DNA of 64,000 bases from an uncultured bacterium (GTDB taxonomy: Bacteria; Patescibacteriota; Minisyncoccia; Phycocordibacterales; UBA9973): contig CAITQP010000005.1 of the NCBI GenBank assembly GCA_903894565.1, positions 28,971 to 92,970 of the forward strand, read 5' to 3'. Below are positions 5,401 through 47,547 of the stretch, one piece after another; the stretch's first letter is position 1; each line of letters begins with the position of its first letter. The notes under the pieces were generated by a model. It saw nothing but the letters and a program-made list of their open reading frames with translations. It was not told where the DNA came from and ran no database searches. The translations under genes and the position numbers were made by a program.

Positions 5401-5666
5401 TAGTAACGCTTGCCGTTACTGACCGCGACTTTGTCGAGGCGTGAGCCGGATGTGACATATGCCTCTACACCGATGATTGGTTTGATGCCTGCCTTGCGCG
5501 CAACTTTGTAGAATTCAATCGCCCCGTACATGTTTCCATGGTCAGTCAGAGCCACCGCTGTTTGGCTGTTCTTTTTTGCGATATCTACCATGTCCTCAAG
5601 TTTGGTCAGACCGTCGAGCAGGGAATAGTGCGAGTGCGTGTGGAGGTGGACGAATTTGGAGCTCAT
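2481..5666 (-). CDS. dnaE: DNA polymerase III alpha subunit
   Basis: PHP-domain start MSSKFVHLHTHSHYSLLDG at ATG 5664-5666 (the ORF track extends to TTG at 5684). ~1060 aa Pol III alpha architecture. Stop TAA. Confidence 0.9.
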   Translation of the reverse strand: MSSKFVHLHTHSHYSLLDGLTKLEDMVDIAKKNSQTAVALTDHGNMYGAIEFYKVARKAGIKPIIGVEAYVTSGSRLDKVAVSNGKRYYHLILLAKNLQGYKNLIRLVTIANLEGYYYKPRMDKEILRKYHEGIVCLSACLGGELSQAVLANDMDKADDIVREHLDIFGKENYFIEVQSHPHIENDKLVRERLIELARKHDVTIVATQDSHYPCRDDHEAHHTLLAINTQGDGNTGKFEFPDDDFSLIDEKTALEYFSDIPEAVANTSKVADLCENYEIELGVAYFPEFPLPEGITADMKLRELSYDGFAFRDLEQTKPYLDRLEYELSVIKQKGYAGYFLVVGDLLKFARENGILTNIRGSVAGSLTTYLIGITNVDPLVYKLPFERFLNPERPSLPDIDMDYADNRRGEMIEYAKRRYGEDRVAQIGTFGTMMAKGSVRDVARALGYPYAIGDRISALIPMGSQGFPMTITHAMELIPELADAYKKEADTKHIIDLALKLEGCVRHVSVHAAGVVIAPKPLYEFAPVQFDPKGGSIITQYDMHYIEDVGLPKFDFLGIRNLAILADAVRLVKELRDIDVNLDKVPLEDARTFEILARGETMGLFQLNGSGMTAYLKQLKPTTIHDINAMVALYRPGPMEMIPQYIERKENPSLVRYLDPRMKDILDQSYGVITYQDDVMMIAIKLAGYSWLEADKLRKAMGKKIPAEMEAQKKHLLEGFVEHGLTEKKAQELWALIEPFAAYGFNKAHAASYGRVAYQTAYMKANFPVEYLCAILTAESGDTEKVAEIINEAVKMGITVLPPEINASFADFTVVNNSNVSGEGIIRFGLLTIKNFGADIANAIIEERRLRGDFKSVTEFLERITHKNLNKKSMEALIKAGAFDHFGERGQLLANMEIMLAYNKERQNIGSQVSLFGDLPTQSLSLTLAPAPKAETIEKLKWEKELLGLYVSGHPLERIRDRIEKSGMTIKKIRDEVKPGFPVTFACIVEEVKVIFTKKNEQMAFIKVGDLTSSIEGVLFTKAFAELQNILLVDTVVAVQARVSERNGEKSLVIEKAKAV

Positions 5667-5774
5667 GTGCGCGTAGTATACCAACGATTGATGCCTTTAG
5701 ACAAAGATATTTTTTATTGTATAATTTTACTTTGTTTAGTTCGTTCGAAATTGTATTTGTTATATACTTACAGT

Positions 5775-6374
5775 ATGAAAGTAATCGTCGGCATCGACGA
5801 AGTCGGTCGCGGGCCACTGGCGGGGCCGGTGGCAGTTGGAGCTTTTGTTCTTCTCGAACCGACTACTGAAAAAGAAATTCAAACGTTTCGAATTCCGCTC
5901 CGTGATTCAAAACAACTTTCGCGCGCTCAGCGAGAAGAATGGTTTACTCAAATCGAATCGTGGCAGAAAGCGGGGAAGTGCGATTTCGCCGTGTCCATGG
6001 TGAGTGCTAAAGAAATCGATGCGCACGGCATTTCTCGCGCGATCAAAAAAGCACTCGCCGAAACACTTGAGACGCTTGAGTGTTCGACCGATGCACTTAT
6101 TCTCCTTGATGGTTCACTCCACGCTCCAGAACATTTTCACAATCAAATTACGATTATCAAAGGTGACGAAAAAGAACCAATTATTTCACTCGCCTCAATC
6201 GTAGCGAAGGTCACACGCGATCGATATATGACACGCTTCGCCGAACGCTACCCACACTATGGATTTGAGCGACACATGGGCTATGGTACCGCAGAGCATT
6301 ACACAGCACTGAAGAAATACGGTCTGTGTCCGATTCACCGCAAGAGCTTTTTGAAAAATATGAGTAAGGTATAG
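5775..6374 (+). CDS. rnhB: Ribonuclease HII
   Basis: MKVIVGIDEVGRGPLAGPVAVGAFVL... canonical RNase HII N-terminus. Stop TAG. Confidence 0.9.
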   Translation: MKVIVGIDEVGRGPLAGPVAVGAFVLLEPTTEKEIQTFRIPLRDSKQLSRAQREEWFTQIESWQKAGKCDFAVSMVSAKEIDAHGISRAIKKALAETLETLECSTDALILLDGSLHAPEHFHNQITIIKGDEKEPIISLASIVAKVTRDRYMTRFAERYPHYGFERHMGYGTAEHYTALKKYGLCPIHRKSFLKNMSKV

Positions 6375-6419: not shown

Positions 6420-6635
6420 ATGGTTATTCGAATGCGTCACACGCGAGCCCACACGGGCAATCGCCGAAGTCATCACGCTCTTAAAAGTGCGGCATTTTCT
6501 AAGTGTTCCCACTGTGGAACCCTTCGTCCGCCTCACACAGTGTGTGTAGCTTGTGGTTATTACCGTGGCCGCAAAGTTCTCGACGTCGTAAAGAAAGTCG
6601 AGAAAAAGCAGGCAAAGCGCAAGACCTCTAAATAA
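6420..6635 (+). CDS. rpmF: 50S ribosomal protein L32
   Basis: RMRHTRAHTGNRRSHHALK... with a CxxC...CxxC zinc ribbon, 71 aa. Confidence 0.8.
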   Translation: MVIRMRHTRAHTGNRRSHHALKSAAFSKCSHCGTLRPPHTVCVACGYYRGRKVLDVVKKVEKKQAKRKTSK

Positions 6636-6743
6636 GCATACGTTTTACGTAGTGCAGAGAGGAGAGATTTAGAAATGGGCAGAACCCGTTCTATGATTGT
6701 CTTCTCTACGTTTCGTATTTGAACGCAATAATTTTTATTTACA

Positions 6744-7661
6744 ATGGCAAATAGGCACCTTTCACGGTCAATCGTTCTCCAAACCCTCTTCGAGTGGGAT
6801 TTTAAAGGTCACCAAACAGAAGGCGTCGAAGAGATGCTTGAGCGCAATGAAGGCGAGTTTGCACCCGGAAACGAAGATTTGCAGTTCATGAAAAAGATTC
6901 TCAGCTATGTCATCGACAAGCGTGAGATTATTGATCAGATCATCGAGAAAGCTGCGCCTGAATGGCCAATTGAAAAGATTAATGCGGTTGATCGAAACAT
7001 TCTTCGTATGGGTCTTGGTGAATTGCTCTTTGGTGATCACAACGAAGTGCCACCAAAGGTTGCTATAAACGAGGCAATCGAACTCGCGAAAACATTCGGA
7101 GGTGATAGTTCGTCACGATTTGTGAACGGAGTACTTGGCGCTGTCTACAAAGAAATCGGCGAACCGGGCAAGGACCAGACATCGAAGCGTCAAAAGAAAC
7201 TCGACGAAGTAGATATTGCGAAGCTTCCTGTTGAACAAAAAGCAGGTGCTCTCATTTATGCACGCGACGGCGAGGAATTGTATTTCGCACTCGTGCATGA
7301 CATTTTTGGATACTGGACCCTTTCGAAGGGTGGCGTTGAAGGGGATGAGACAGCTGAGCAAGCTGCAATTCGTGAGATCAAAGAAGAGTGTAATCTCGAT
7401 ATTACAATCAAAGAAAAAATTGGTGAGAGTGAGTACGTCGCGTCGCATCCAGAAAAAGGCAAAATCAAAAAGCGTGTTACATTCTTCCTTGCAGAATCTC
7501 CTTACGTTCCGGTCACACTCGAAAATCATTCTGGAGGACTCGACGATGTACGATGGTTTACGCTTGCTGAAGTTGCAAGTCTCAAAATGTATGATGACGT
7601 GACTGGGTATATGGCGAATGCCATCACGACTCTCGTTGGAGACAATAGTGGTGCTGAATAA
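6744..7661 (+). CDS. nusB: NusB antitermination factor fused to a C-terminal NUDIX hydrolase domain
   Basis: N-terminal ~140 aa NusB fold (ILRMGLGELLF..., VAINEAIELAKTFGGDSSSRFVNGVLGAV). C-terminal ~140 aa with Nudix box GGVEGDETAEQAAIREIKEECNL. Continuous 305-aa ORF, stop TAA. Confidence 0.75.
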   Translation: MANRHLSRSIVLQTLFEWDFKGHQTEGVEEMLERNEGEFAPGNEDLQFMKKILSYVIDKREIIDQIIEKAAPEWPIEKINAVDRNILRMGLGELLFGDHNEVPPKVAINEAIELAKTFGGDSSSRFVNGVLGAVYKEIGEPGKDQTSKRQKKLDEVDIAKLPVEQKAGALIYARDGEELYFALVHDIFGYWTLSKGGVEGDETAEQAAIREIKEECNLDITIKEKIGESEYVASHPEKGKIKKRVTFFLAESPYVPVTLENHSGGLDDVRWFTLAEVASLKMYDDVTGYMANAITTLVGDNSGAE

Positions 7662-7687: not shown

Positions 7688-8398
7688 ATGCCTGAAAAAT
7701 TATCACGTGAATGGGAGACCTTTGAAAAGACTATTGGCGTAAGTTTTAAAAACCGCGACCTGCTTACGCAGGCGTTCATTCATCGTTCTTTTTTAAACGA
7801 GAACCCACGTACTGGTATTGAACACAACGAACGTCTCGAATTTCTTGGTGATGCAGTTCTTGAGCTTGCTGTTACTGATTATTTGTATCGAACATACCCA
7901 GAAAGTCCAGAAGGTGAGCTTACGTCATATCGCGCCGCACTCGTGAACGCAAATACGATGGCTGATTTTGCAAATGAGATCAACATGAATGAGTATTTGT
8001 TCCTTTCACGAGGAGAAGCCAAAGATACCGGCAAGGCACGTTTGTACATTCTCGCGAACGCGATTGAAGCACTCATTGGTGCACTCTACCTCGATCAGGG
8101 ATATGATGTCGCAGAGCAATTCATCGATCGATTTCTCTACAAGCGTGCTGCTGACGTGGTCAAAATGAAATTGTGGCGCGATTCGAAAAGTCTTGTGCAA
8201 GAAAAAGCTCAAGAGCACGTAAACGTGACGCCGAGCTATAAAGTCGTTCGGGAGACAGGTCCAGATCACGACAAGCATTTTACGATTGGTATTTTCTTTG
8301 GTGAAGAAAAAATTGCCGAGGGTCGAGGACACTCCAAACAGGAAGCAGAACAGGATGCTGCACGTGCAGCCCTTGTAGCAAAACACTGGCTCGATTAG
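7688..8398 (+). CDS. rnc: Ribonuclease III
   Basis: ERLEFLGDAVLEL RNase III signature plus C-terminal dsRBD. Stop TAG. Confidence 0.9.
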   Translation: MPEKLSREWETFEKTIGVSFKNRDLLTQAFIHRSFLNENPRTGIEHNERLEFLGDAVLELAVTDYLYRTYPESPEGELTSYRAALVNANTMADFANEINMNEYLFLSRGEAKDTGKARLYILANAIEALIGALYLDQGYDVAEQFIDRFLYKRAADVVKMKLWRDSKSLVQEKAQEHVNVTPSYKVVRETGPDHDKHFTIGIFFGEEKIAEGRGHSKQEAEQDAARAALVAKHWLD

Positions 8399-8415: not shown

Positions 8416-10656
8416 ATGCTCAAACGAATCGAACTATCTGGATTTAAATCTTTTGCGAAAAAAACAACGCTTACTTTTGATACGCCAATCACGGCAGTCG
8501 TCGGACCGAATGGTTCGGGAAAATCAAACGTCGTTGAGTCTATTCGCTTTGTGCTTGGAGAGCAGAGTATCAAAAGCATGCGAGGCAAGGGCTCTGCCGA
8601 CCTCATTTGGAAAGGTTCAAAATTACTTGCGGGTGGAACGAAGGCACGCGTCTCAATCGCGTTCGACAATTCTGATCGTAAGTTCGCTTTTTCAAATGCG
8701 AGTGGTGCATCCGCTGAACTTGGCTTCGATGAAATCACGCTTTCGCGTGAGGTGACCGCTGATGGGGGAAGTGATTACTTTATCAATGGTACGAATGTTC
8801 GTCTCAAGGATATTACGGAGCTTCTTGGTTCGGTAAATATTGGTTCTTCAGGTCACCATATCATTTCGCAAGGTGAGGCAGATCGACTGCTCAGCGCGTC
8901 TCCAAAGGATCGCCGTGGCATGGTAGAGGACGCACTGGGACTCAAGGTTTACCAGATGCGTATTCGCGACGCAGAACGCAAACTCGAAAAAACAGCGCTC
9001 AATATGCGTGAAGTCCAAGCACTGCGACGTGAACTTGCTCCGCACCTCATATTCCTCGGAAAGCAGGTTGAGAAAATTAAAATGGCAGAAGAACTGCGCA
9101 AGGAATTTGCGGGACTGTATCATGAGTATGCGACATTAGAATCTGCATCGATTCGATTTGCTGAACACGAGCTTCATACAGAGGAGTCACATATCAAACG
9201 TGAGATTGCGAGTATCGAAGATGTGGTGACAAGTAGCACTTCGGGTAAATACGATGCGGAACGTGGAGTGATCCTCGATGAAGTACGAACAGCAGAAAAT
9301 GAACAAAGTAAACTCTTTCGAGAGAAAGAAGAACTTGGTCGTGCACTTGGACGTATTGAAGGTAAGCTTGATGCACTTACAGTTGTCCACGAAGAGACTC
9401 GTGGAGTGACAGTCGTGCCTGTGCGAGACGTGCAGTCACTCTGTGCAGATATCATCGCAACAATAGATACAACGGAGACGATAGAAGAATTGTCTGGCGT
9501 TCGTTCGGCGCTTCTCTCTATGAAGCACAAAATTGCGACATTTACGGATTCACTCAAAGGGCAGAAAGCTCCAGAGATTGATCGCGATTCGATACGAGCT
9601 TCGATTGATCATGAAAAGCAAGCACTCGAATCACGCATGCGCGAGATCGATGTGCTTGTGAGTGCCGTGCGTGATCACGTACAGGTTGCTCGCGAAAAGC
9701 TTGCGAAACTCGAGCAAGAAATTCGTGACAGTGAACGAAGTTCCTACGCAGGTGTCGCCCGTCGAGCTACGCTCGACGGGCAGCTTCGCGAGTGCGCTAT
9801 CCGCATGGAGAATCTCACTCGTCGCAAATCGGTACTTGCCGAAGAGACACGCGAAGCTGAAGCATTGCTCGGTGTGTTGATGCATGGTGTGACTGATGGC
9901 CCGATGAGCGAAGATACGAATGAGAAATTCGCTGAGCGTGAGGCACTTCATCGAAAACTCGAACGTATTAAAATCAAACTCGAAGATGCAGGAGCTGCGA
10001 GTGGGGCAGAAGTCCTCAAAGAATTTGAAGACACTCGTGATCGTGATGCGTTTCTCGCGCGCGAGCTTGTTGATATCGAGGCAAGTATTACTTCGCTTCG
10101 CGCCCTCATTCATGAATTGCGCGATACAATTGAACGTACCTTCAAAGAAGGTATTGAGAAAATCAACGTACAGTTTGGAGACTTTTTCAAACTCATGTTT
10201 GGCGGGGGAGGAGCATTTCTTTCTATCGTTGTTGAACACAAGGCACGTCGTGATGAAGATGGCGATATGATTGATCAGGATTCTGATGCGCTCCCATTTG
10301 AACACGGCATTGAAATCAACGTAAATCTTCCACACAAAAAAGTCCGCGATCTCAATATGCTCTCAGGAGGCGAGCGTTCACTCATTTCGATTGCGCTTCT
10401 CTTTGCGATGAGTCAGGTCAATCCACCACCATTCCTCGTACTCGATGAGACAGACGCTGCGCTCGACGAAGCCAACTCGCGCAAGTACGGCGACATGCTC
10501 ACGCACCTCTCACAGCACTCCAAACTCATCGTGGTCACTCACAATCGTGAGACGATGTCTCGTGCACAAGTACTCTACGGAGTCACGATGGGCCTTGAAG
10601 GCGCATCAAAATTACTCTCCATCAAGTTTGATGAAGCAGTATTGATTGCAAAATAA
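8416..10656 (+). CDS. smc: Chromosome segregation protein SMC (compact, 746 aa)
   Basis: N-terminus MLKRIELSGFKSFAKK...GPNGSGKSN (Walker A). C-terminus LSGGERSLISIALLFAM signature, FLVLDETDAALD Walker B, and the LYGVTM tail. Coiled-coil middle is shortened. Confidence 0.85.
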   Translation: MLKRIELSGFKSFAKKTTLTFDTPITAVVGPNGSGKSNVVESIRFVLGEQSIKSMRGKGSADLIWKGSKLLAGGTKARVSIAFDNSDRKFAFSNASGASAELGFDEITLSREVTADGGSDYFINGTNVRLKDITELLGSVNIGSSGHHIISQGEADRLLSASPKDRRGMVEDALGLKVYQMRIRDAERKLEKTALNMREVQALRRELAPHLIFLGKQVEKIKMAEELRKEFAGLYHEYATLESASIRFAEHELHTEESHIKREIASIEDVVTSSTSGKYDAERGVILDEVRTAENEQSKLFREKEELGRALGRIEGKLDALTVVHEETRGVTVVPVRDVQSLCADIIATIDTTETIEELSGVRSALLSMKHKIATFTDSLKGQKAPEIDRDSIRASIDHEKQALESRMREIDVLVSAVRDHVQVAREKLAKLEQEIRDSERSSYAGVARRATLDGQLRECAIRMENLTRRKSVLAEETREAEALLGVLMHGVTDGPMSEDTNEKFAEREALHRKLERIKIKLEDAGAASGAEVLKEFEDTRDRDAFLARELVDIEASITSLRALIHELRDTIERTFKEGIEKINVQFGDFFKLMFGGGGAFLSIVVEHKARRDEDGDMIDQDSDALPFEHGIEINVNLPHKKVRDLNMLSGGERSLISIALLFAMSQVNPPPFLVLDETDAALDEANSRKYGDMLTHLSQHSKLIVVTHNRETMSRAQVLYGVTMGLEGASKLLSIKFDEAVLIAK

Positions 10657-10660: not shown

Positions 10661-11698
10661 TTACTTTGTGCTGAGCGAAGGAGCGTAGTTTGAATCGAGA
10701 ATAGTTTCATGAGGCGTCACATCAGTGACGTTTTTTCCTGTGAGCGTTGCGGTGACATAGAGACCATGCGTTGTGTTCGTAGAGAACGGTTGATCGAAGA
10801 TGAAGTTTCCGAGACTGTAGAGGATCGGTGCGCCGTTGTATGCGGCGATATCCTCAGCGACATGAGGATGCGCTCCGACAATCATAACTGCGCCATCATC
10901 AATCGCTTTTTGGGCGAGTGTTTCTTGGCGTGCATTGTGTTTGGTTTGATACTCAACACCAAAGTGGAATGAGACAATCAGTGAGTCGACTTTGGTCGAA
11001 GCCGTGCGTACGATCGAATCGAAATCTGGATCGTTTGCAAGGAGTACGCCAGCCTTTGTGTCTGTTGCAGCACCATCGTCTGGTCCAACATCAGTAAAGC
11101 ACAAGAACCCAACAGTGCGGTCTCCTTTGGTAAAGATTGCTGGAGTCTCTGCTTCTGTTTTGTTCATACCAATACCACATGTTTGTATTCCTCCCGCGCG
11201 AAGTCGCTCGAGTGTATCGACAAGTGCGGGCTCGCCCCAATCTTTGATGTGATTGTTTGCTGATGAGACAACATCGACGCCCGCATCTTTGAGTATGGAA
11301 ACAACTTTTGGATCCATACGGAATGAATACAAGTTGTGACGATCTGCACCGACGTCGCTCACAGGACCTTCGAGGTTTGCAAAAGTAATATCTGTATCTT
11401 TGAGAAAACTGGCATTCGCAAATAGTTTGGAATAATCACCATCAAGATTTTTGTTTACTTTAAACTTTACACCACGGTCGAGCATGATATCTCCGACCAT
11501 ACCGATAGTGATTGAAGTTGGCGCGGGGAGTGATGGAACAAGATTTTGTTGTGTCGCAATAACTGCAGCGGCTTGGTTTAGATCGTTTGTGGCAGGAAAA
11601 GAGAATTGGATATGTTCAAAACCACGCCCTAAAAAGCCTGCGGACAGACCGAGGAAAAGTAATCCAAACAAAAGTTGTTTATCCTTGTACGACTTCAT
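10661..11698 (-). CDS. CapA-family (PGA-biosynthesis / metallophosphatase-like) membrane-anchored protein
   Basis: N-terminal TM anchor, then the CapA-like pattern (MVGDIMLDRGV..., SSANNHIKDWG, GAHPHV). Start taken at MKSYKDK. Confidence 0.7.
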   Translation of the reverse strand: MKSYKDKQLLFGLLFLGLSAGFLGRGFEHIQFSFPATNDLNQAAAVIATQQNLVPSLPAPTSITIGMVGDIMLDRGVKFKVNKNLDGDYSKLFANASFLKDTDITFANLEGPVSDVGADRHNLYSFRMDPKVVSILKDAGVDVVSSANNHIKDWGEPALVDTLERLRAGGIQTCGIGMNKTEAETPAIFTKGDRTVGFLCFTDVGPDDGAATDTKAGVLLANDPDFDSIVRTASTKVDSLIVSFHFGVEYQTKHNARQETLAQKAIDDGAVMIVGAHPHVAEDIAAYNGAPILYSLGNFIFDQPFSTNTTHGLYVTATLTGKNVTDVTPHETILDSNYAPSLSTK

Positions 11699-13763
11699 AG
11701 TCAATCTGTCGGCGCTCTGGATCAGCACGAACGATTTTCACTTGTATTGTATCACCAATTCGATATTTTTTTTGCGAAATTTGTCCGGTCAATGTAGCGA
11801 GTCGAGGATTGAGACTGAATGGTTCATTCGCAAGTGTGCGAAGAGAGATGAGGCCTTCAGCTGTGGTCTCCTTGTCTCGTACATAGATGCCCCATTCAGC
11901 GATACCGGTAATCATTCCAGTAATTGTTTCGCCAACTTTTGTTGCCATGTATTCAGTGAGTTTGAATTTTACACTCTCGCGTTCTGCGTCAGCTGCGCGC
12001 ACTTCTGCCATCGAACACAGTCGCGCTACGCGCTCGTACGTCTTGCGTGCATTTGCAGGAGCTGGTTTGCCTGCGAGTGCATAGCGGAGCAAGCGATGAA
12101 TGACGAGGTCAGGATAGCGACGAATTGGGGAAGTAAAATGCGTGTAGTGTTTGAATTGCAAACCGTAGTGACCAATATTTTTGGTTGTGTACACAGCTTT
12201 GGCCATGGAACGAATCACAAAAGTGAGCGCGGTTTGTTTCAAGTCACCAGCTTCGAATGCATGAATGACATCACTGATCGCGCGAGGATCGAGCGATCCA
12301 TCTTTGCGGAGCGGAATCGGGTGACCGATTGAGCGCATGAAGAAGGCGAGGTCCTCGGCCTTTTCTGTTGTTGGCTGGTCGTGTGTTCGGTAGATGACAG
12401 AGTATTCACATTCGCCGTTCGGATTTGGTTTTCCTCCAGCTTTTTTAGATTTGCCACCACGCTCGAGGAATTCGGCGATGCGACGATTGGCAAGGAGCAT
12501 GAGCTCTTCAATCAATGTGTGACTTTCGGTGCGGATTTTTTTTACAATTTTGATTGGCTTGCCCGTCTCATCAATGATGACTTTGATTTCTTCTTGTTCG
12601 AGGATGAGTGCGCCTTCGTCGATACGTCCTTTGCCAAGCTTGCGTGCGATGCCGGCTGCAATCATTACTTCCTCGCGGAATTTGTGCGGTGCGCCATCAA
12701 GGACTTCTTGAGCTGATTCATACGTGAAGCGTTGTGCAGAATGAATGACGGTTGGTCCAAACCACGCGCCTTTTTCTTCGCCATCTGGTCCGAAGGTAAC
12801 GACGGCACTCATCGTGAGGCGGTCAACATCGGGAAGCAGGGAACACAAGTCGTCAGAGAGTACGCGTGGGAGCATTGGGATCGTGCGGTCGACGAGATAC
12901 ACAGACGTGCCACGTTCTATCGCTTCACGATCAAGTTCAGTTTTGGGCTGTACGTAATGCGAAACGTCGGCAATATGAATTCCGATTTCGACGTCACCGT
13001 TTGCAAGTTTCTCAACGGAAATTGCGTCGTCAAAATCTTTTGCATCGTATGGATCAATCGTGAATGTTACAATCTTGCGAAAATCACGACGATCGCGGAG
13101 GTCGTCGAGGGTTATACCACGCGCGTCGATAGCTTTTGCTTCGACGAGAACTTCGTCAGGAAATGCTTCGGTGAATCCGCGCTCAAGTGCAATGGCCTGC
13201 ATTTCTGTTTCGTGTTCACCTGGTTTGCCGAGGAGACGAACGACGCGACCAATCGGCGCAACATTTTGATTTTTCCATTCAGTCATTTCGACATACACAC
13301 GATCTCCCGGACGCGCATCAAGTGCCATGTCTTTTTGGATCGAAATATTTGCGTACATTTTTGGATCGGAAGCTTTGAGGATGTATGAATTGCCGAGTTG
13401 CGCGAGTACGCCAGTGAATTGTGTTTTGGCACGCATTACGATCTCGGTAATTCGACCGATGGTTTCTTTGGTAGGAGCACCTGTCGTGATTGATGGGCGA
13501 GTGGCTTTTGATCCCGTCACAACGACTTTGACTTCGTCGCCATGGAGTGCCATATTCATGTCGTTTTCAAACACACGAATGCCATCTTTGTATTCTTCGC
13601 ATTTGACGATACCACCTCCGCGACCAAGTACGACGAGCGTACCCTCAATGATTTTCTGAGGTCGGGCATGGTTCTTTGTTTGCGTTTTGTTTTCGTGAGA
13701 GGCTCGAGCGGAATGGTGCGGACGAGGGGCGTGCTTGTCTCCGCCTTGATGAGGTTTTTTCAT
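11679..13763 (-). CDS. rnr: Ribonuclease R (RNB-family 3'-5' exoribonuclease)
   Basis: RNB catalytic region, C-terminal S1 domain, His/Lys-rich basic N-terminal tail. Stop TAA. Confidence 0.85.
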   Translation of the reverse strand: MKKPHQGGDKHAPRPHHSARASHENKTQTKNHARPQKIIEGTLVVLGRGGGIVKCEEYKDGIRVFENDMNMALHGDEVKVVVTGSKATRPSITTGAPTKETIGRITEIVMRAKTQFTGVLAQLGNSYILKASDPKMYANISIQKDMALDARPGDRVYVEMTEWKNQNVAPIGRVVRLLGKPGEHETEMQAIALERGFTEAFPDEVLVEAKAIDARGITLDDLRDRRDFRKIVTFTIDPYDAKDFDDAISVEKLANGDVEIGIHIADVSHYVQPKTELDREAIERGTSVYLVDRTIPMLPRVLSDDLCSLLPDVDRLTMSAVVTFGPDGEEKGAWFGPTVIHSAQRFTYESAQEVLDGAPHKFREEVMIAAGIARKLGKGRIDEGALILEQEEIKVIIDETGKPIKIVKKIRTESHTLIEELMLLANRRIAEFLERGGKSKKAGGKPNPNGECEYSVIYRTHDQPTTEKAEDLAFFMRSIGHPIPLRKDGSLDPRAISDVIHAFEAGDLKQTALTFVIRSMAKAVYTTKNIGHYGLQFKHYTHFTSPIRRYPDLVIHRLLRYALAGKPAPANARKTYERVARLCSMAEVRAADAERESVKFKLTEYMATKVGETITGMITGIAEWGIYVRDKETTAEGLISLRTLANEPFSLNPRLATLTGQISQKKYRIGDTIQVKIVRADPERRQIDYEVVQG

Positions 13764-14724: not shown

Positions 14725-14810
14725 TTGTGTAAAAAAAATGGAATAGTTACAATAGTAATTATTACTATTATTCCTTGCGAACCGTAGGTAGGTTCACAAG
14801 TCAGTATGAT

Positions 14811-16145
14811 ATGAGTTTTTGGAATAACCCCGAAAATAACGCAGTAAAGGTTTTGCTTCTTGTTGTTGTTTTGGCGGGTGCTGGTTTTTTTGTGGTAAAT
14901 GGTGCTCATTCGGGTACTGGAAGTGCGACTGGTCAAGTTATTGTTGCTTCACAAACAAGTACACAATCACCTGCAGGAATGCTTCCTCCTGGTGTTGGAG
15001 CTGTTAATTCAATTGGTGTACCAGCGAATGCTCCGACTACGCCAAGTGGCTCGTCTACAACTGGTACTACTACTGGTGGTGGAGTAGGTGCTGGTACGAG
15101 CGGTACTGGAGCTACACCACCAACAGCAACTCTCTTTCCAGCGATTAATATTGGAGCAAATCCTACTGGATCACTCGCTTCTGCAATGAAGGTCTTGTAC
15201 GTTCAAGGAACGTCAGTCTTTGCAGGTGGTGTAGGCATCCGCGGACAGCTCGGTGTGGCTCAGAATGATGGGAGTACTGTCTCAACGAGCGCTCCTGGAT
15301 ATAACACTATCTATGTACAAGGCGTTCCTGTTTGTTTGAGAGATGGTTCAAACTGTCCTCAGTCAGGCGCTTCGATGGGATCAAATAATGCAGGTACAGC
15401 AGCTGCTCCTTCATCTGTTTTGCCTTTTACATCAAAAGGACCAGTCACTTCACAAGGAGCTTGGATTGGTTGGAATAATCTTACCGGTGGTACTGGTGAG
15501 ACAGATTTCATTAATAATAAAGGTGAGGGTACGGGAGGATTCGCATTTATGAATGGAGGCAATGGTAGTCCATCTGCACCATCTGAGAAAGTTCTCGGTA
15601 CGCTCGATGACACAGGAACATTGTCTGTCCCTGGTTCAGTAAATGCTTTGAACGAATCTCATTTTGGAGTTGGAGGAAAATATATCGATCCAGCTCCAGG
15701 TGTTCCAGTTGCATTGAAGGCAAATTCAATCGCGACAGGAAAATTGGTTGTGGATGGTGAAGTACCAATTATGCGTATTAACCCTGCTTGTTTTGAAGGG
15801 GACACAAAATGGTTTAATCCGTTTCCTATGCCTTTTGATTCAAATACTCTCTCGAATATGTTTATTGGTACGGTTTCTCTTCCGTTTCAGATATTAAATC
15901 AAGCCGGAATTCTTGCTAAAAATTTATTGAACGTAGTTTTTGGCGGAGGAAATAACTGGAACGACAGCATCTTGAAATCTTCAGTTATACTTACAACAAG
16001 TACTGGTTGTTATAACAAGAATGGAACATATTATAGTAATGCCGATTATGGAATTTTCGGGTTCGTTCTTCCTGGTATTCCACCAAAGAATGCTAGTACA
16101 GATATAATCAATAAATACACATTACTTGGTACGGGGCATAAATAA
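14811..16145 (+). CDS. Membrane-anchored Gly/Thr/Ser-rich low-complexity surface protein
   Basis: N-terminal hydrophobic anchor (VKVLLLVVVLAGAGFFVV), then long G/T/S/A/P-rich low-complexity region and a C-terminal globular part. No recognisable enzymatic motif. Start at ATG 14811 (ORF track starts 14775). Confidence 0.6.
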   Translation: MSFWNNPENNAVKVLLLVVVLAGAGFFVVNGAHSGTGSATGQVIVASQTSTQSPAGMLPPGVGAVNSIGVPANAPTTPSGSSTTGTTTGGGVGAGTSGTGATPPTATLFPAINIGANPTGSLASAMKVLYVQGTSVFAGGVGIRGQLGVAQNDGSTVSTSAPGYNTIYVQGVPVCLRDGSNCPQSGASMGSNNAGTAAAPSSVLPFTSKGPVTSQGAWIGWNNLTGGTGETDFINNKGEGTGGFAFMNGGNGSPSAPSEKVLGTLDDTGTLSVPGSVNALNESHFGVGGKYIDPAPGVPVALKANSIATGKLVVDGEVPIMRINPACFEGDTKWFNPFPMPFDSNTLSNMFIGTVSLPFQILNQAGILAKNLLNVVFGGGNNWNDSILKSSVILTTSTGCYNKNGTYYSNADYGIFGFVLPGIPPKNASTDIINKYTLLGTGHK

Positions 16146-44127: not shown

Positions 44128-47100
44128 ATGTCAAATAAAGCACCCGCACCCGCACCCGCACCCGCACCTACACCTGCAAACGAAAAACAGGTTTTTAAGG
44201 CTGCTATCGTAAACACCACGAAGATGGTGGAAGCGCATATTACTGATGTTGCGGACGCTCGCATGACGGCCTCAAAAGAGGACCGAAACAAGAATTGGTT
44301 TAAACGAAAGATTGATAAAATTTGGAAGCATGATCTCATGCAGGAATTTTATCGTCAACGTGAAATATCAAAAGTTCGAAAGGAAATTGCGGATACGGGC
44401 AATTTTTATGCTGGAGACAAAGAGATCATTGATTCAAACGAAGCCAAGGAAGCGATGCTTGCAATTACAGATCGTTTTACCGACGAGCTTCGTGACGAAA
44501 TGTTGACAAAGGAAGAGAAAGATTCGATTGATGAGAATTCGCGTTCCAGCCAGGAAATGAATGATCTCGTACGCAAATATGCTGATACAACGCATGTAAT
44601 GTCAGATCAGGCATTTGAGGAAGAAAAGAAGCGTATAATCGCAAATCTTGACCCAACGTACAAAGACAAACGTGAGGTATATGCCGACAATATACTTGAG
44701 ATAGCAAAAAACGTTCGCCAAGCGGTTGCCAACGGTCAGAAGCTTGAAGAGCTCGACTTTGACGTTGATATTACACTCGGAAGTACCCGTGGACGCATGC
44801 AAACAGCAGCGCACCACAATGCCTTTGATAAGGGTGTTGAAAAACTACAGAATTCAAAACTCGGGAAGTTCCTTGTGAATACTCCAGGTGCTATCGCGCT
44901 CTCAGCAGCAGTTTATTCAGTGGGCAAATATGCATTTACAAAAGTTGCACGTACTGATGCAGCAAAAATTGCGAGTTTTGGTGGTACGGCAGTGATCTCA
45001 GGAACTGTTGCGGCTACAAAAGAAGCTGCACGTTTGAACCGCGAGCGTGCTCAGCATCATCGCGAAAAAGCCAAAGGAGTTACATTTGAGGGTGACGACA
45101 TGAAGCGTCGTAACTCAATGAATACTACTTCATACGAAACACAAAAAGCTACGGAAGTCACCACACTGCTTGCGGGTGATCTCGCGAAGGTTGAAGCTGG
45201 CAATATGCAGCCTGCTGACCTTGATATGATTATCGCGCACATCGCAAATCTTCGCGCTCGAAAGTCGCTTGGAGAAGATCGTCATATTGACCTTGTTACT
45301 TACTCTAGTTTAAAGATGATGGAGAAAGAGGGTAAAGAGCTCGACAAAACCGAGGCTAAATTGGTTGTGGCTCTTCGTAAAGGAGTCGAATCTGGAAAGA
45401 TAGTTTTCGACAAAGAGACAGATGATTTTGATACATATCTGAGTCAGCAAATATATACGCAAGAACGTGCGTTGCTTGGTGGTGAATCTGGTATCGAAAA
45501 AAAGGATCAAGCGTTTACTAAAATGAAAGCGAAGCGCACTGCTTGGGCTTTTGTGAAGTCAGCAACACTTGGTGCCGGTATCGGGGCTGTATTCCAAGAA
45601 GCGCATGCCCTCCTTTCTGACGATCTCGACGGAGTACTTGAGGGTATGAGTAAACACTTACATCAGGGCACGACAGGTGGCTTTACAGAGCACGCTACAG
45701 CGCTTGAGGCACTGCGTCGCCACTTCAACCACGAAGACGTTCCTCGACTTGCAGATACGGGTGCAGGTCACGAGTATCTTATGAATGGTGGTGCAACAAC
45801 AATGCACACTCCAGATGGAGCAACGGTTACCGTGAATCCAGATGGTACATACAATATCATGCGAGGTAATGACGTGCTTGAGAAGAATCTTCCACTAGAG
45901 TTTGATAAGACGACTGGAGATCTTCTGCCAACATCCCGTGCATTGCTTCAAAAAGATGGAATTTTTGCGAACTTCAGCCAGACGACACAGCATGGTAGTG
46001 GCCCAATGAGTGCGGAGGATTACATCAAGAGTCACAATGGTGATTTTACCAAAGTCCACCGACATACTTTCTATGACAATAATACTGCTGATAAACCAGA
46101 CTTGAACGAAAAACGCGAGTATTGGGGCGGCGAGAATGGAACCGGTGTCAATGCGAAAGGAAACTATGAATTTAGAACGGGCGTAAAGGCAGGTGGATCA
46201 TTCCATGGGAATGATGCATTCGATGTACCTGAAGCAATCAAAAAAGGCGGAATCGTAAAGATGGCATTCTCGGTCACTCGTGGGACTCAGCATGAAGTTA
46301 TCATGCTTCCAGTGTCATCTGTTGATGAACACGGTAATGCAATATTTGAAATCGACAAGGACAGTGCTCTCGGTAAGGATTTGTTCGAAGTGAACGCGGA
46401 TGGACATGCCGTTTTCAAAGGCCAATTTGCCGAACTTATTGAAGACTCAGGCAAAGCAGCTGATGGAGCAGAGAACATCAATATCATTGCAACGCACATC
46501 GGACTTGGACAAGCTGATACTATTGTTGGAGGGGTAGACAAAGTCGTGCCACATCTTAAACTGGATATTCCTGGTTCGTGGGATTATGAAATGCCAATGG
46601 TTGTTCCAATCTTGGGACGTCGTCCACTTGAATCAGGCAAGGCGCCTGCTAAAAAGAAGCGACCAAATGAGGACCCACACGGACCAGCTGATCCAAACGC
46701 ACCAACGCCACATGGACCTGACGGCGTACCGCTCAAAGCTAAGGATAAACTTCCTCCAAGTAAGTTTACAATTCGAAAATTCGTTGGAGAAAAGCCTGAG
46801 GACAAATATTCTGGTCTTACACAGGACTTAGAAGTATATGAGAAAGCTCGATTGGCTGGTGGTTCTGAATTTTCTGTAAATAGTAAGGATTTGAAATCAA
46901 CAGGCTTCAAAGAAATTTTAAGAAAGCACGCTCAAGTGACTAAAACACCAGGATCGGATGAAGAGACGTATGCCGTTACGCTTGATGCACGCGGAAAAAT
47001 TGCTGATGCATTATATAAGGCAAATCAGGCTGAGGTCAAAAGAAGTAATCTAAAAGTCCAAGCAATGGGTCACAATCCGCTTTTGGAAGATCTCGATAAG

Positions 47101-47547
47101 TATGCCCACGAGACTATGAAACCTGTGTCAAAAGAAGATTTTACAAAAAAATATCTTCCAAAGTTGATTCAAGAAGCATTCCGCGGATATGGAAATATCG
47201 AGGTGCCTGATAATGCATTTTTGTCCTCGAAGTCACGTGTTCTGCCTGCGAATGAATTCGTCGGGAACCTTGATATCAAAGTGAAGCCTTCGAAAGGAAG
47301 CAAAAAGGTTGATGCCAAGATCGACAATCTTAAATTCATAATGAAGGACGGCAAATTGGAGGTAGCGAAAGGATATACATTTACGAATCCAGATGAAACG
47401 AAGGATGTTCGCGATACTGTAAATAAGGTATTAACGGACTTCGGAAGCGTTTTCGACAAGGATCTTTCAGGCCTATTCGGTGAAAAACTTAAGAGCTTGA
47501 AGATGAATGGAGGTAACGTTGATGTTCTTACAACCAAGAAAGTATAA
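44128..47547 (+). CDS. Giant (1139 aa) membrane-associated hypothetical protein with N-terminal (Ala-Pro)n repeat and a Pro-rich linker
   Basis: MSNKAPAPAPAPAPTPA..., hydrophobic helices near residues ~250-320 and ~515-540, linker KKKRPNEDPHGPADPNAPTPHGPDGVP. No known domain recognised. Confidence 0.65.
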   Translation: MSNKAPAPAPAPAPTPANEKQVFKAAIVNTTKMVEAHITDVADARMTASKEDRNKNWFKRKIDKIWKHDLMQEFYRQREISKVRKEIADTGNFYAGDKEIIDSNEAKEAMLAITDRFTDELRDEMLTKEEKDSIDENSRSSQEMNDLVRKYADTTHVMSDQAFEEEKKRIIANLDPTYKDKREVYADNILEIAKNVRQAVANGQKLEELDFDVDITLGSTRGRMQTAAHHNAFDKGVEKLQNSKLGKFLVNTPGAIALSAAVYSVGKYAFTKVARTDAAKIASFGGTAVISGTVAATKEAARLNRERAQHHREKAKGVTFEGDDMKRRNSMNTTSYETQKATEVTTLLAGDLAKVEAGNMQPADLDMIIAHIANLRARKSLGEDRHIDLVTYSSLKMMEKEGKELDKTEAKLVVALRKGVESGKIVFDKETDDFDTYLSQQIYTQERALLGGESGIEKKDQAFTKMKAKRTAWAFVKSATLGAGIGAVFQEAHALLSDDLDGVLEGMSKHLHQGTTGGFTEHATALEALRRHFNHEDVPRLADTGAGHEYLMNGGATTMHTPDGATVTVNPDGTYNIMRGNDVLEKNLPLEFDKTTGDLLPTSRALLQKDGIFANFSQTTQHGSGPMSAEDYIKSHNGDFTKVHRHTFYDNNTADKPDLNEKREYWGGENGTGVNAKGNYEFRTGVKAGGSFHGNDAFDVPEAIKKGGIVKMAFSVTRGTQHEVIMLPVSSVDEHGNAIFEIDKDSALGKDLFEVNADGHAVFKGQFAELIEDSGKAADGAENINIIATHIGLGQADTIVGGVDKVVPHLKLDIPGSWDYEMPMVVPILGRRPLESGKAPAKKKRPNEDPHGPADPNAPTPHGPDGVPLKAKDKLPPSKFTIRKFVGEKPEDKYSGLTQDLEVYEKARLAGGSEFSVNSKDLKSTGFKEILRKHAQVTKTPGSDEETYAVTLDARGKIADALYKANQAEVKRSNLKVQAMGHNPLLEDLDKYAHETMKPVSKEDFTKKYLPKLIQEAFRGYGNIEVPDNAFLSSKSRVLPANEFVGNLDIKVKPSKGSKKVDAKIDNLKFIMKDGKLEVAKGYTFTNPDETKDVRDTVNKVLTDFGSVFDKDLSGLFGEKLKSLKMNGGNVDVLTTKKV
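44140..44163 (+). repeat. Hexanucleotide tandem repeat (GCACCC) x4 encoding the (Ala-Pro)n stretch
   Basis: gcacccgcacccgcacccgcaccc, in frame (2 codons per unit). Confidence 0.8.

What the first reader, a model, noticed from the sequence alone, without database searches (positions are those of the whole stretch)
6744..7661. NusB fused in-frame to a NUDIX hydrolase domain
One continuous 305-aa ORF: residues ~1-140 are a canonical NusB fold (conserved ILRMGLGELLF and VNGVLGAV segments), a ~30-aa charged linker follows, then a ~140-aa NUDIX domain with an almost canonical Nudix box GGVEGDETAEQAAIREIKEECNL (the terminal Gly is replaced by Asn). The gene sits in the usual nusB position next to rnc. 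A nucleotide-pyrophosphatase domain attached to an antitermination factor could link transcription to nucleotide, alarmone or RNA-cap (NAD or Np4A cap) metabolism.
Basis: partly seen in the sequence, partly recalled or inferred. Interest (0 to 1): 0.55.

Follow-up and report, generated by a model that had tools for sequence, protein, structure and literature searches.

The report
NusB fused to Ap4A-hydrolase-like Nudix domain
A whole lineage of ultra-small Patescibacteria makes its rRNA transcription factor NusB as one protein with a nucleotide-polyphosphate-binding Nudix domain, always encoded just upstream of RNase III; the fusion is real and apparently undescribed, but what the extra domain does is still inferred.

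Summary
Window 6744-7661 (+) is one 305-aa ORF: NusB (Pfam E 6e-33; TIGR01951 above cut-off), a conserved disordered basic linker, and a Nudix domain (E 4e-15) with a complete box apart from the penultimate G->N. It is not an assembly error. The 120 best database homologues and all 80 species-level genome loci examined carry the same uninterrupted fusion, always in the order rpmF - nusB::nudix - rnc - smc. All named sources are Paceibacteria/Parcubacteria. Apparent split versions are the same ORF with one in-frame nonsense codon. By sequence and fold the Nudix half is closest to diadenosine-polyphosphate hydrolases (Aquifex Ap4A hydrolase, Tth Ndx1, C. elegans enzyme, NUDT2), not RppH. Across the family the catalytic glutamates are less conserved than the putative base-stacking tyrosines and a phosphate-binding lysine. 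E211 is lost in 47 of 237 members, through at least 17 independent changes, yet the domain is kept. The window's clade keeps an intact site. Best reading: a NusB carrying an ApnA-hydrolase-type binding and hydrolysing module to the BoxA/rRNA-leader complex. The substrate (RNA 5' end or ApnA) is inferred. New variant of a known kind; no paper found.

The parts
6420..6635 (+). rpmF (ribosomal protein L32), conserved upstream neighbour
   Evidence: Pfam Ribosomal_L32p E 4.7e-16. Lies upstream of the fusion in every related locus whose contig reaches that far.
6744..7661 (+). nusB::nudix fusion gene, 305 aa
   Evidence: Single ORF with both Pfam domains. The same architecture is found in the 120 best homologues and in 80 of 80 genome loci.
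6744..7157 (+). NusB domain (residues 1-138)
   Evidence: PF01029 E 5.7e-33 and TIGR01951 above cut-off. Sequence matches to T. maritima NusB 1.4e-17, A. aeolicus NusB 2.4e-17 and E. coli NusB 6.6e-14. Fold TMt 0.86, rmsd 1.8 A to Aquifex NusB 3r2d_B. All-helical AF2 model, pLDDT about 85-94.
7158..7223 (+). Conserved basic linker (residues 139-160; GEPGKDQTSKRQKK...)
   Evidence: G139 E140 P141 G142 K143 K148 are invariant in alignment A1 of 21 relatives at 63-92% identity. Their weighted frequencies in the 237-member family are 0.50-0.76. AF2 pLDDT is below 50 for residues 141-155 and pTM is 0.52, so there is no fixed inter-domain packing.
7224..7637 (+). Nudix domain of ApnA-hydrolase type (residues 161-298)
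   Evidence: PF00293 E 4.1e-15. Foldseek best hits: Aquifex Ap4A hydrolase 3i7u (TMt 0.88, rmsd 2.1), Tth Ap6A hydrolase Ndx1 (0.84), CT771, C. elegans and human Ap4A hydrolases, Mtb Rv2985. A profile of the Nudix halves hits the same proteins at 5e-9 to 1.5e-6.
7329..7397 (+). Nudix box G196-L218 (GGVEGDETAEQAAIREIKEECNL)
   Evidence: Read directly. All of G196, E202, R210, E211, E214, E215 are present. E211 aligns with NUDT2 E58, whose Ala mutant is inactive (PMC8616924).
7434..7436 (+). Y231, putative base-stacking (ApnA specificity) tyrosine
   Evidence: 80/80 in species loci. Aligns with the Tyr of Aquifex Ap4A hydrolase and Tth Ndx1. It matches the ELNYVAR Tyr of NUDT2 by motif comparison with the NUDT2 sequence shown. 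The motif is described in PMC5389931 and PMC2425470.
7590..7592 (+). Y283, second conserved tyrosine
   Evidence: Weighted conservation 0.96. Kept in 98% of members that lost E211. Aligns with Y121 of C. elegans Ap4A hydrolase.
7688..8398 (+). rnc (RNase III), 26 bp downstream, probably co-transcribed
   Evidence: Pfam Ribonucleas_3_3, Ribonuclease_3 and dsrm. Downstream of the fusion in 80 of 80 loci. No + strand terminator-like site between the two genes.
8416..10656 (+). smc (short, 746 aa), conserved next gene
   Evidence: tblastn synteny in 76 of the 80 loci; the four without a hit have no smc match in the DNA held, three of them on short or truncated contigs. SMC_N Pfam on the counterparts in L081/L082.

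Best explanation
This is a genuine, lineage-wide bifunctional protein of Paceibacteria/Parcubacteria (Patescibacteria).

The N-terminal half is an orthodox NusB. From established NusB biology it binds BoxA RNA together with ribosomal protein S10 in the leader of nascent rRNA and takes part in rRNA transcription and maturation.

A conserved, basic, flexible tether of about 22 residues links it to a small Nudix domain of the diadenosine-polyphosphate (ApnA) hydrolase type. That domain's conserved core function is to bind a purine nucleoside 5'-polyphosphate group. In this genome's clade, where the Nudix box is complete, it probably also hydrolyses it.

The most likely mechanism is that NusB delivers this module to the 5' leader of the nascent transcript. 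There it acts on the 5'-tri/diphosphate or Np4N-capped end (NUDT2/RppH-like), or on free ApnA near RNA polymerase. This couples 5'-end status to rRNA maturation by the co-transcribed RNase III.

Shown: the ORF, both domains, the family-wide fusion, the synteny, ApnA-hydrolase-like sequence and fold, and the intact catalytic motif here.
Inferred: BoxA/S10 binding, enzymatic activity, the identity of the ligand, and the coupling to RNase III.
For: Real and conserved. These cover 80 of 80 species loci with an uninterrupted fusion and rpmF-fusion-rnc-smc synteny, and 230 clusters at 50% identity with E<1e-30, about 60 of them full length.

Split gene calls are single nonsense codons inside the same ORF.

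NusB half: TIGR01951 above cut-off, NusB structures as best matches, no second NusB or Nudix gene in the 64 kb window.

Nudix half: ApnA hydrolases are the closest relatives by sequence and fold. The ApnA specificity Tyr (Y231), the second Tyr (Y283 = C. elegans Y121) and the 'WTxxKG' Lys (K195 = C. elegans K36) are the best conserved residues.

An Ap4A hydrolase (NUDT2) is known to trim 5'-PPP-RNA (PMC8616924). nusB and rnc are genetically linked in E. coli rRNA maturation (PMC4807359).

The domain is retained under constraint even where catalysis is lost, which argues for a role tied to NusB rather than a free housekeeping enzyme. The rnc adjacency exists only in fusion-bearing lineages.
Against: There is no biochemical evidence. 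AF2 gives no defined inter-domain geometry (pTM 0.52).

The domain fails RppH family models (21.6 bits against cut-off 116), and no RppH structure appears among sequence hits at E<=1e-3, so an RNA substrate is only an analogy.

The acidic residue that aligns with C. elegans E103 and the Aquifex Glu is an invariant Gly (G265) in this family.

Catalytic Glu residues are lost at least 17 times (E211) and at least 39 times (full REEE set) in the family, so hydrolysis cannot be the general function.

No rRNA operon or BoxA is in the window to test proximity of BoxA to a 5' end.
Confidence: 0.45

Rival explanations
1. Scaffold or pseudo-enzyme role, SuhB-like. The Nudix fold serves mainly as a protein/RNA-interaction module that completes the Nus complex, for example by bridging NusB/S10-BoxA to RNA polymerase or NusA. 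Any residual hydrolase activity is incidental, as for SuhB in the E. coli rRNA antitermination complex or CFIm25 in eukaryotic 3'-end processing.
For: Catalytic residues are less conserved than fold and other surface residues: weighted E211 0.51, E214 0.65, R210 0.73 against W271 0.97, Y283 0.96, W191 0.95. 47 of 237 members lack E211 yet retain the domain. Only 10 of 43 divergent cluster representatives keep E211. Precedents: SuhB is recruited NusB-dependently and its IMPase activity is not needed (PMC4807359); CFIm25 binds Ap4A and RNA without hydrolysing them (PMC2425470); non-enzymatic Nudix proteins are a recognised class (PMC5389931).
Against: In the window's clade (>=70% identity) E211 is never lost (0 of 91) and REEE is intact in 76 of 91, which indicates selection for catalysis there. 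The residues that persist in the 'dead' members are those that bind nucleotide in ApnA hydrolases (Y231, Y283, K195), so ligand binding rather than a pure protein scaffold is implied. AF2 predicts no stable interface with NusB.
Confidence: 0.22
2. Independent housekeeping enzyme fused by genome streamlining. An ordinary ApnA/NTP-sanitising Nudix hydrolase gene happened to lie between nusB and rnc and fused to nusB. The two halves work independently and the fusion only ensures co-expression.
For: The flexible linker and absence of predicted domain contacts. The Nudix half looks like a complete, minimal ApnA hydrolase. Patescibacteria have small, compact genomes with short intergenic gaps (26 and 17 bp around rnc).
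Against: No unfused two-gene intermediate was found. The apparent ones are nonsense-interrupted fusions, and unfused-NusB relatives have no Nudix neighbour. The linker is sequence-conserved. A free housekeeping hydrolase that lost its catalytic Glu would be expected to decay or be deleted, yet 'dead' versions keep the domain and its binding residues. The fusion is maintained across at least 230 clusters at 50% identity.
Confidence: 0.2
3. Allosteric nucleotide sensor. The Nudix domain binds a signalling nucleotide (Ap4A/ApnA or a related alarmone) and modulates NusB-dependent rRNA transcription according to stress or growth state. Hydrolysis, where retained, resets the signal.
For: Ligand-binding residues are conserved more strongly than catalytic ones. 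Nudix-domain transcription regulators such as NrtR were among the fold hits (3gz8). CFIm25 binds Ap4A with micromolar affinity (PMC2425470).
Against: There is no predicted contact through which binding could be transmitted to NusB. NrtR hits have a poor rmsd of 7-8 A. Nothing is known here about ApnA metabolism in these organisms.
Confidence: 0.1
4. Artefact: a missed stop or frameshift, or a chimeric assembly, joining two separate genes.
For: A few database entries call the halves as separate genes (P0249, P0276, P0281).
Against: Those entries are the same reading frame with a single nonsense codon at a conserved sense position. 80 of 80 species-level loci and the 120 best homologues from independent projects are continuous.
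Confidence: 0.01

Closest known systems
NusB (transcription antitermination / rRNA maturation factor; PF01029, TIGR01951)
   Same: The N-terminal 138 residues match the NusB equivalog model above its cut-off and superpose on Aquifex and Thermotoga NusB (TMt about 0.86). The Arg-rich N-terminus and DRNILR/NEAIELAK/FVNGVLG motifs are nearly invariant in the family.
   Different: Canonical NusB is a stand-alone protein of about 140 aa. Here it carries a conserved linker and a 140-aa Nudix domain. The gene neighbourhood (rpmF-nusB::nudix-rnc-smc) differs from that of unfused NusB in related Patescibacteria.
Nudix diadenosine-polyphosphate hydrolases (Aquifex aq_158 Ap4A hydrolase, T. thermophilus Ndx1 Ap6A hydrolase, C. 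elegans Ap4A hydrolase, human NUDT2, Chlamydia CT771)
   Same: They are the closest relatives of the C-terminal half by sequence profile (5e-9 to 1.5e-6) and fold (TMt 0.74-0.88). They share the W-x-x-x-K-G lead-in to the Nudix box, the specificity Tyr after the box (Y231) and a second Tyr (Y283 = C. elegans Y121).
   Different: Identity is only 22-27%. The position of C. elegans E103 and the Aquifex Glu is an invariant Gly. The domain is fused to NusB. Catalytic glutamates are frequently lost in the wider family. Activity is untested.
RppH / NUDT2-type RNA 5'-pyrophosphohydrolases and Np4A decapping
   Same: The hypothesised mode of action is a Nudix enzyme of the ApnA-hydrolase lineage converting 5'-PPP (or Np4-capped) RNA to 5'-P RNA. 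NUDT2 does this and its E58A mutant (the equivalent of E211 here) is dead (PMC8616924).
   Different: It is not a member of the RppH family by NCBIfam models (best 21.6 bits against cut-off 116), and no RppH structure is among the sequence hits. An RNA substrate is inference only.
SuhB in the E. coli rRNA antitermination complex; CFIm25 in eukaryotic pre-mRNA 3' processing
   Same: Both are enzyme-fold proteins recruited to an RNA-processing or transcription complex where catalysis is dispensable (PMC4807359, PMC2425470). This parallels family members that lost their catalytic Glu but keep the domain.
   Different: There is no homology to SuhB (a different fold). CFIm25 lacks two glutamates, whereas the window protein has all of them. 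Here the accessory domain is covalently fused to NusB.

Membership tests
NusB (TIGR01951 / PF01029) | Match to the curated family models above their cut-offs | tested here: met
   TIGR01951 scores 127.7 bits against cut-off 88.35. PF01029 scores 114.6 bits against 23.1 and covers 131 of 133 model positions.
NusB (TIGR01951 / PF01029) | All-helical NusB fold | tested here: met
   The AF2 model has seven helices, pLDDT about 85-94. Foldseek to Aquifex NusB 3r2d_B gives TMt 0.86, rmsd 1.8 A, 32% identity. T. maritima NusB 1tzv gives TMt 0.85.
NusB (TIGR01951 / PF01029) | Binds BoxA RNA together with ribosomal protein S10 (NusE) | not testable with these tools
   There is no rRNA operon or BoxA in the window, and no complex prediction is available.
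NusB (TIGR01951 / PF01029) | Is the organism's only NusB | tested here: inconclusive
   There is no second NusB-like sequence in the 64 kb window.
Nudix hydrolase superfamily (PF00293) | Match to Pfam NUDIX above the gathering score, and the alpha/beta/alpha Nudix fold | tested here: met
   56.4 bits against 21.1. The AF2 domain has pLDDT about 80-94 with mixed sheet plus helices. There are hundreds of Nudix structures among the Foldseek hits.
Nudix hydrolase superfamily (PF00293) | Nudix box GX5EX7REUXEEXGU with the catalytic Glu residues | tested here: met
   The window has G196, E202, R210, E211, E214 and E215. Only the penultimate G is N. Family-wide the box is intact (R-E-E-E) in 156 of 237 members.
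Nudix hydrolase superfamily (PF00293) | Mg2+-dependent pyrophosphohydrolase activity | not testable with these tools
   This requires an enzyme assay.
ApnA (Ap4A/Ap6A) hydrolase subgroup of Nudix | Closest sequence and structure relatives are characterised ApnA hydrolases | tested here: met
   Profile against PDB: 3i7u 5.4e-9, 1kt9 1.2e-8, 4ilq 1.2e-8, 1vc8 7.7e-8, 3u53 1.5e-6. Foldseek rank 1 is 3i7u.
ApnA (Ap4A/Ap6A) hydrolase subgroup of Nudix | Conserved Tyr/Phe downstream of the Nudix box that stacks on the adenine (specificity motif; PMC5389931, PMC2425470) | tested here: met
   Y231 is present in 80 of 80 species loci. It aligns with the Tyr of the Aquifex and Tth enzymes and lies adjacent to C. 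elegans Y76. It matches the NUDT2 ELNYVAR Tyr by motif comparison with the NUDT2 sequence.
ApnA (Ap4A/Ap6A) hydrolase subgroup of Nudix | Additional acidic residue outside the box (C. elegans E103 position) | tested here: inconclusive
   That column is an invariant Gly (G265). A conserved Asp (D267) lies two residues downstream and might substitute.
ApnA (Ap4A/Ap6A) hydrolase subgroup of Nudix | Hydrolysis of Ap4A/Ap5A/Ap6A | not testable with these tools
   This requires an enzyme assay.
RppH (RNA pyrophosphohydrolase) | Match to RppH family models or structures | tested here: not met
   The best NCBIfam RppH model, NF001938, scores 21.6 bits against cut-off 116 and covers only the Nudix box. 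No RppH chain appears at E<=1e-3 in the profile search.
NudC (NAD-cap / NADH pyrophosphatase) | Match to the NudC model or structure | tested here: not met
   NF001299 scores 18.9 bits against cut-off 158. E. coli NudC is only rank 46 in Foldseek, with TMt 0.38.

The most novel reading that the evidence does not exclude
The Nudix domain is a 5'-end reader and decapping module that physically ties the 5' terminus (ppp- or Np4N-capped purine) of the nascent rRNA leader to the NusB-S10-BoxA complex. In Paceibacteria it takes the place of a SuhB-type looping or accessory factor. It hydrolyses the end in some lineages and merely holds it in those with a degenerate Nudix box. This would be a previously unknown, covalently built-in coupling between transcription antitermination, 5'-end chemistry and RNase III processing.
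Probability: 0.2. Interest if true: 0.75.

Novelty: new variant of a known kind. Interest (0 to 1): 0.55.

Why it matters
NusB is one of the most conserved transcription factors, and it is normally a single-domain protein whose accessory partners (S10, SuhB, NusA/G) are separate polypeptides. A lineage-wide covalent fusion to an ApnA-hydrolase-type Nudix domain, always placed just upstream of RNase III, is a natural 'Rosetta stone'. It points to a functional link between the Nus/BoxA complex and nucleoside-polyphosphate chemistry, either at RNA 5' ends or through dinucleoside polyphosphates.

The link is directly testable with one recombinant protein. The repeated loss of catalytic residues with retention of binding residues also offers a natural series of enzyme-to-pseudoenzyme transitions inside an essential complex. 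Finally, it adds a concrete, conserved molecular peculiarity to Patescibacteria, whose transcription and ribosome-biogenesis machinery is poorly understood.

Tried and rejected
1. Assembly or frameshift artefact: rejected.

2. Ancestral two-gene nusB + nudix operon. The 'stand-alone Nudix' hits P0249, P0276 and P0281 turned out to be the fusion ORF with one in-frame TAA/TAG at a conserved Lys, Tyr or Glu codon, so no unfused intermediate was found. A reassigned stop codon was considered because smc in L081 is also split. It was rejected because the interrupting codons are TAA/TAG, which also terminate the neighbouring genes.

3. NusB proteins with about 200-aa K/E-rich tails (P0241, P0244, P0267) as degenerate Nudix fusions: hhalign gave no reliable alignment beyond the NusB part, so this is left open.

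4. BoxA search in the window: one match with 2 mismatches against 2.2 expected by chance, so uninformative. There is no rRNA in the window.

5. AFDB fold search to list UniProt carriers of the architecture: the library was unavailable.

6. Literature: no paper in the searchable library links NusB with Nudix or describes this fusion. The Nudix-clan survey has no mention of NusB.

7. Taxonomy of divergent cluster representatives: only one carried a name, also Parcubacteria. Spread outside Paceibacteria therefore remains unknown.

8. RppH or NudC membership: tested and not met.
Full report
**1. The observation**

Window 6744-7661 (+) is a single ORF of 305 codons, starting at ATG and ending at TAA.
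- Pfam finds NusB at residues 7-136 (E 5.7e-33) and NUDIX at residues 167-281 (E 4.1e-15), both far above their gathering scores.
- NCBIfam's nusB equivalog TIGR01951 is passed: 127.7 bits against a cut-off of 88.35.
- The Nudix box reads G196-GVEGD-E202-TAEQAAI-R210-E211-I-K-E214-E215-C-N217-L218.
- Neighbours are dnaE (-), rnhB, rpmF, then the fusion, then rnc 26 bp downstream and smc 17 bp further on. No + strand terminator-like site lies between rnhB and smc.
- The wider window is ordinary Patescibacteria-style housekeeping: thrS, RNase R, BipA, rpoB, rpoC, uvrB, uvrA. It holds two tRNAs and no rRNA.

**2. It is not an artefact**

- The 120 best hits in a 5.8-billion-protein collection (64-97% identity, from NCBI, JGI, ENA and Logan assemblies) are all about 300 aa and all carry PF01029 plus PF00293.
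The 80 best (57-89% identity) come from MAGs titled Paceibacteria, Paceibacterota, Nomurabacteria, Lloydbacteria, Yonathbacteria, Parcubacteria, Minisyncoccia or Patescibacteria. Many others carry generic 'uncultured Candidatus Saccharibacteria' titles, and one, L056, is probably mis-binned as 'Flavobacteriaceae'.
- In all 80 loci the two halves lie in one frame in one uninterrupted ORF of at least 280 aa.
- The order rpmF - nusB::nudix - rnc - smc is kept wherever the contig reaches.
- A search of 1.84 billion cluster representatives at 50% identity gave 230 clusters with E<1e-30, about 60 of them full-length fusions down to about 33% identity. The architecture is therefore old and deep.
- The only divergent representative with a name is also Parcubacteria.

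**3. Apparent split genes**

Some entries call a stand-alone Nudix gene next to a stand-alone nusB (P0249, P0276, P0281). Reading the DNA shows the same frame throughout, with one nonsense codon at a conserved sense position:
- L081: TAA for the Lys in 'SKRQ'
- L083: TAA for the Tyr in 'GAVYKE'
- L082: TAG for the Glu in 'GLxELLF'

smc of L081 is broken in the same way. These are point nonsense changes or sequencing errors in low-coverage assemblies, not an ancestral two-gene state.

A genuinely unfused NusB family (145-155 aa, NusB Pfam domain only) exists in other Patescibacteria. There nusB lies in a groEL...nusB-hup neighbourhood without rpmF, rnc or any Nudix gene.

**4. Anatomy**

AF2, using 21 homologues as the alignment, gives two confident domains and a disordered connector (pLDDT below 50 for residues 141-155). 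Mean pLDDT is 82.7. pTM is 0.52, so no fixed mutual orientation is predicted.

The connector is nevertheless conserved in sequence. G139-E-P-G-K143 and K148 are invariant among relatives of 63-92% identity. It is basic (GEPGKDQTSKRQKK). It behaves like a functional tether or short linear motif rather than a neutral spacer.

The NusB half:
- It superposes on Aquifex NusB (3r2d_B: TMt 0.86, rmsd 1.8 A, 32% identity) and T. maritima NusB.
- By sequence it matches the T. maritima, A. aeolicus, E. coli and M. tuberculosis NusB structures (1.4e-17 to 1e-11).
- No second NusB or Nudix gene lies in the 64 kb window.

**5. What kind of Nudix domain**

- By sequence (single protein; profile of 25 Nudix halves) and by fold the closest solved relatives are diadenosine-polyphosphate hydrolases. 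These are Aquifex Ap4A hydrolase (profile E 5.4e-9; TMt 0.88, rmsd 2.1 A), C. elegans Ap4A hydrolase (1.2e-8), Chlamydia CT771 (1.2e-8), T. thermophilus Ap6A hydrolase Ndx1 (7.7e-8; TMt 0.84), human NUDT2 (1.5e-6) and Mtb Rv2985. Dcp2 follows further down.
- RppH and NudC family models are far below their cut-offs (21.6 against 116 bits and 18.9 against 158 bits). No RppH chain reaches E 1e-3.
- In the HMMER alignments, K195 of the 'YWTLSKG' lead-in aligns with C. elegans K36.
- Y231 aligns with the Tyr of the Aquifex and Tth enzymes and sits next to C. elegans Y76.
- By motif comparison with the NUDT2 sequence shown, Y231 matches the 'ELNYVAR' Tyr of NUDT2.
- G239-K240...K243 align with G80-K81...K83 of the C. 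elegans enzyme.
- Y283 aligns exactly with C. elegans Y121.
- The Tyr/Phe after the Nudix box is the recognised ApnA-hydrolase specificity motif that stacks on the adenine (PMC5389931; PMC2425470).
- One difference: the column of C. elegans E103 and the Aquifex Glu is an invariant Gly (G265) here. A conserved Asp (D267) lies two residues downstream.

**6. The unexpected part: catalysis is not uniformly conserved**

I aligned 242 family members: the window protein, 80 species loci, 118 close homologues and 43 divergent cluster representatives.

| Set | E211 | E214 | R210 | E215 | Other residues |
|---|---|---|---|---|---|
| 80 species-level loci | 65 | 66 | 73 | 79 | W191, Y231, G264, G265, W271 all 80/80 |
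| 43 divergent representatives | 10 | 21 | 22 | 29 | W271 40, W191 37, K195 37, Y231 34 |

(Source. The alignment of the box region was checked by eye.)

With sequence weighting, the commonest-residue frequencies are:
- E211 0.51, E214 0.65, R210 0.73, E215 0.79
- W271 0.97, Y283 0.96, W191 0.95, K195 0.93, T192 0.91, D186 0.90, Y231 0.87

On a neighbour-joining tree, Fitch parsimony needs at least 17 state changes at E211 and at least 39 for the complete R-E-E-E set, which is intact in 156 of 237 members.

E211 is the equivalent of NUDT2 E58 (RETQEE -> RATQEE in the E58A crystal sequence). That mutant is inactive on PPP-RNA (PMC8616924).

The 47 members lacking E211 still keep Y283 (0.98), K195 (0.96), W271 (0.96), W191 (0.94) and Y231 (0.91). 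Their other metal and catalytic positions erode together: R210 0.53, D267 0.55, E214 0.64. Their Nudix half diverges only slightly faster than in intact lineages at equal NusB divergence.

In the window's own clade (>=70% identity) E211 is never lost (0 of 91) and R-E-E-E is intact in 76 of 91. The exceptions are E214 substitutions, for example REIKAE in P0002, P0003 and P0005 (P0002 and P0003 are 92% and P0005 90% identical to the window protein).

The domain is therefore selected everywhere. Its nucleotide-binding residues are selected almost everywhere. Its hydrolytic machinery is selected only in part of the family, which includes this genome.

**7. Most likely mechanism**

Established knowledge:
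- NusB with S10 binds BoxA in the rRNA leader, and the Nus complex promotes correct co-transcriptional rRNA folding and maturation.
- nusB defects in E. coli are suppressed by rnc mutations.
- SuhB, an enzyme-fold protein, joins the complex NusB-dependently, and its own catalytic activity is not what matters (PMC4807359).
- Ap4A hydrolases can act on RNA 5' ends: NUDT2 trims PPP-RNA to P-RNA (PMC8616924).
- The ApnA and cap structures are chemically alike (PMC5389931).

Inference: the fusion places an ApnA-hydrolase-type purine-nucleoside-polyphosphate pocket on a flexible, basic tether of about 22 residues next to the BoxA-bound NusB, close to the 5' end of the nascent leader.

The best-supported reading is that it binds a 5'-tri/diphosphate or Np4N-capped end of the nascent transcript, or free ApnA near RNA polymerase. 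In this clade it probably also hydrolyses that group. This would link 5'-end chemistry to rRNA maturation by the RNase III encoded 26 bp downstream.

Confidence levels:
- That the protein is a real, conserved, two-function NusB: very high.
- That the ligand is a purine nucleoside polyphosphate: moderate.
- That the ligand is specifically an RNA 5' end: low to moderate.

Rivals:
- (a) A SuhB/CFIm25-like scaffold role with incidental catalysis. The erosion pattern favours this. The intact site in this clade and the retention of nucleotide-binding residues argue against it.
- (b) An unrelated housekeeping ApnA hydrolase fused by genome streamlining. The flexible linker favours this. The conserved linker, the absence of unfused intermediates and the retention of 'dead' domains argue against it.
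- (c) A nucleotide sensor modulating NusB.
- (d) An artefact, which is refuted.

**8. Comparison with the known, and novelty**

The N-terminal half is a member of the NusB family: model cut-offs and fold are met, while RNA and S10 binding are untestable here. The C-terminal half is a member of the Nudix superfamily and, by relatives and specificity motif, of the ApnA-hydrolase subgroup, though activity is untested. It is not an RppH or NudC family member, since both were tested and not met. 'Works like RppH/NUDT2' is an analogy only.

The architecture is present in public databases, annotated simply as 'transcription antitermination factor NusB' or 'N utilization substance protein B'. I found no paper that mentions it, and the comprehensive Nudix-clan survey does not mention NusB.

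I therefore rate it a new variant of a known kind: a new, lineage-wide domain architecture of NusB, not a new kind of system.

**9. Verdict**

- Observation: confirmed.
- Interpretation: partly supported. The domain calls and the intact site are right. The 'usual position next to rnc' is wrong as a generality. The function is narrowed to ApnA/5'-polyphosphate chemistry but unproven.
- Interest: 0.55. A specialist would be moderately surprised. The fusion offers a clean, testable handle on a possible link between the Nus complex and RNA 5'-end or dinucleoside-polyphosphate chemistry, and a natural enzyme-to-pseudoenzyme series. The mechanism remains inferential and the parts are individually ordinary.

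Noticed in passing
proteins P0241, P0244, P0267 (from; sequences): NusB proteins of 338-345 aa whose C-terminal ~200 residues are a K/E-rich low-complexity stretch followed by a short conserved end, without a recognisable Nudix box. hhalign against the fusion family aligns only the NusB part reliably. They could be a second, different NusB extension or an extremely degenerate Nudix remnant.
   Followed up: partly
L081 4956-4958 and 7233-7235; L083 941-943; L082 35-37: Single in-frame TAA/TAG codons interrupt the nusB::nudix ORF at conserved sense positions, and in L081 also interrupt smc, in metagenome contigs. This makes gene callers report separate NusB and Nudix genes. They are probably sequencing or assembly errors or population nonsense variants. 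The result is misleading 'stand-alone Nudix' database entries.
   Followed up: yes
window 8416-10656 (+): The smc gene encodes only 746 aa, and relatives in the 80 loci span a similar ~2.2 kb. From my own knowledge, typical bacterial SMC is about 1,100-1,200 aa, so this lineage seems to have a short-coiled-coil 'mini-SMC'.
   Followed up: no
window 44128-47547 (+) and 14775-16145 (+): Two large ORFs (1139 aa and 456 aa) have no Pfam match at E<=1e-5. They are uncharacterised proteins within an otherwise housekeeping region.
   Followed up: no
L084, L086, L087: In Patescibacteria with unfused NusB, the gene sits in a conserved groEL ... (small unknown ORFs) ... nusB - hup (HU) arrangement. This is quite different from the rpmF-nusB::nudix-rnc-smc arrangement of the fusion clade.
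   Followed up: partly
window 10661-13763 (-); also L081 8306-10420 and L082 3551-5661: A PGA_cap-domain gene and RNase R (rnr) on the opposite strand directly follow smc in the window and in the distant relatives L081/L082. The conserved block therefore holds three RNA-processing genes (nusB::nudix, rnc, rnr) around smc.
   Followed up: no
L056 (JBLHIK010000014.1) and many CAY*/CAZ* loci: One contig carrying the typical Paceibacteria locus is titled 'Flavobacteriaceae bacterium' MAG, which is likely a mis-binned contig. Dozens of loci are titled 'uncultured Candidatus Saccharibacteria' although their nearest named relatives are Paceibacteria/Nomurabacteria, so these look like generic or incorrect taxonomic labels.
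   Followed up: no
window 5698-5725 (+): A near-consensus sigma-70-like promoter (TAGACA-16-TATAAT, 11 of 12) lies just upstream of the likely rnhB start at about 5772. It is the best candidate promoter for an rnhB-rpmF-nusB::nudix-rnc-smc transcription unit. A weaker site (9 of 12) lies at 6668-6697, upstream of the fusion. The long ORF call 5538-6374 for rnhB probably over-extends the true start.
   Followed up: no
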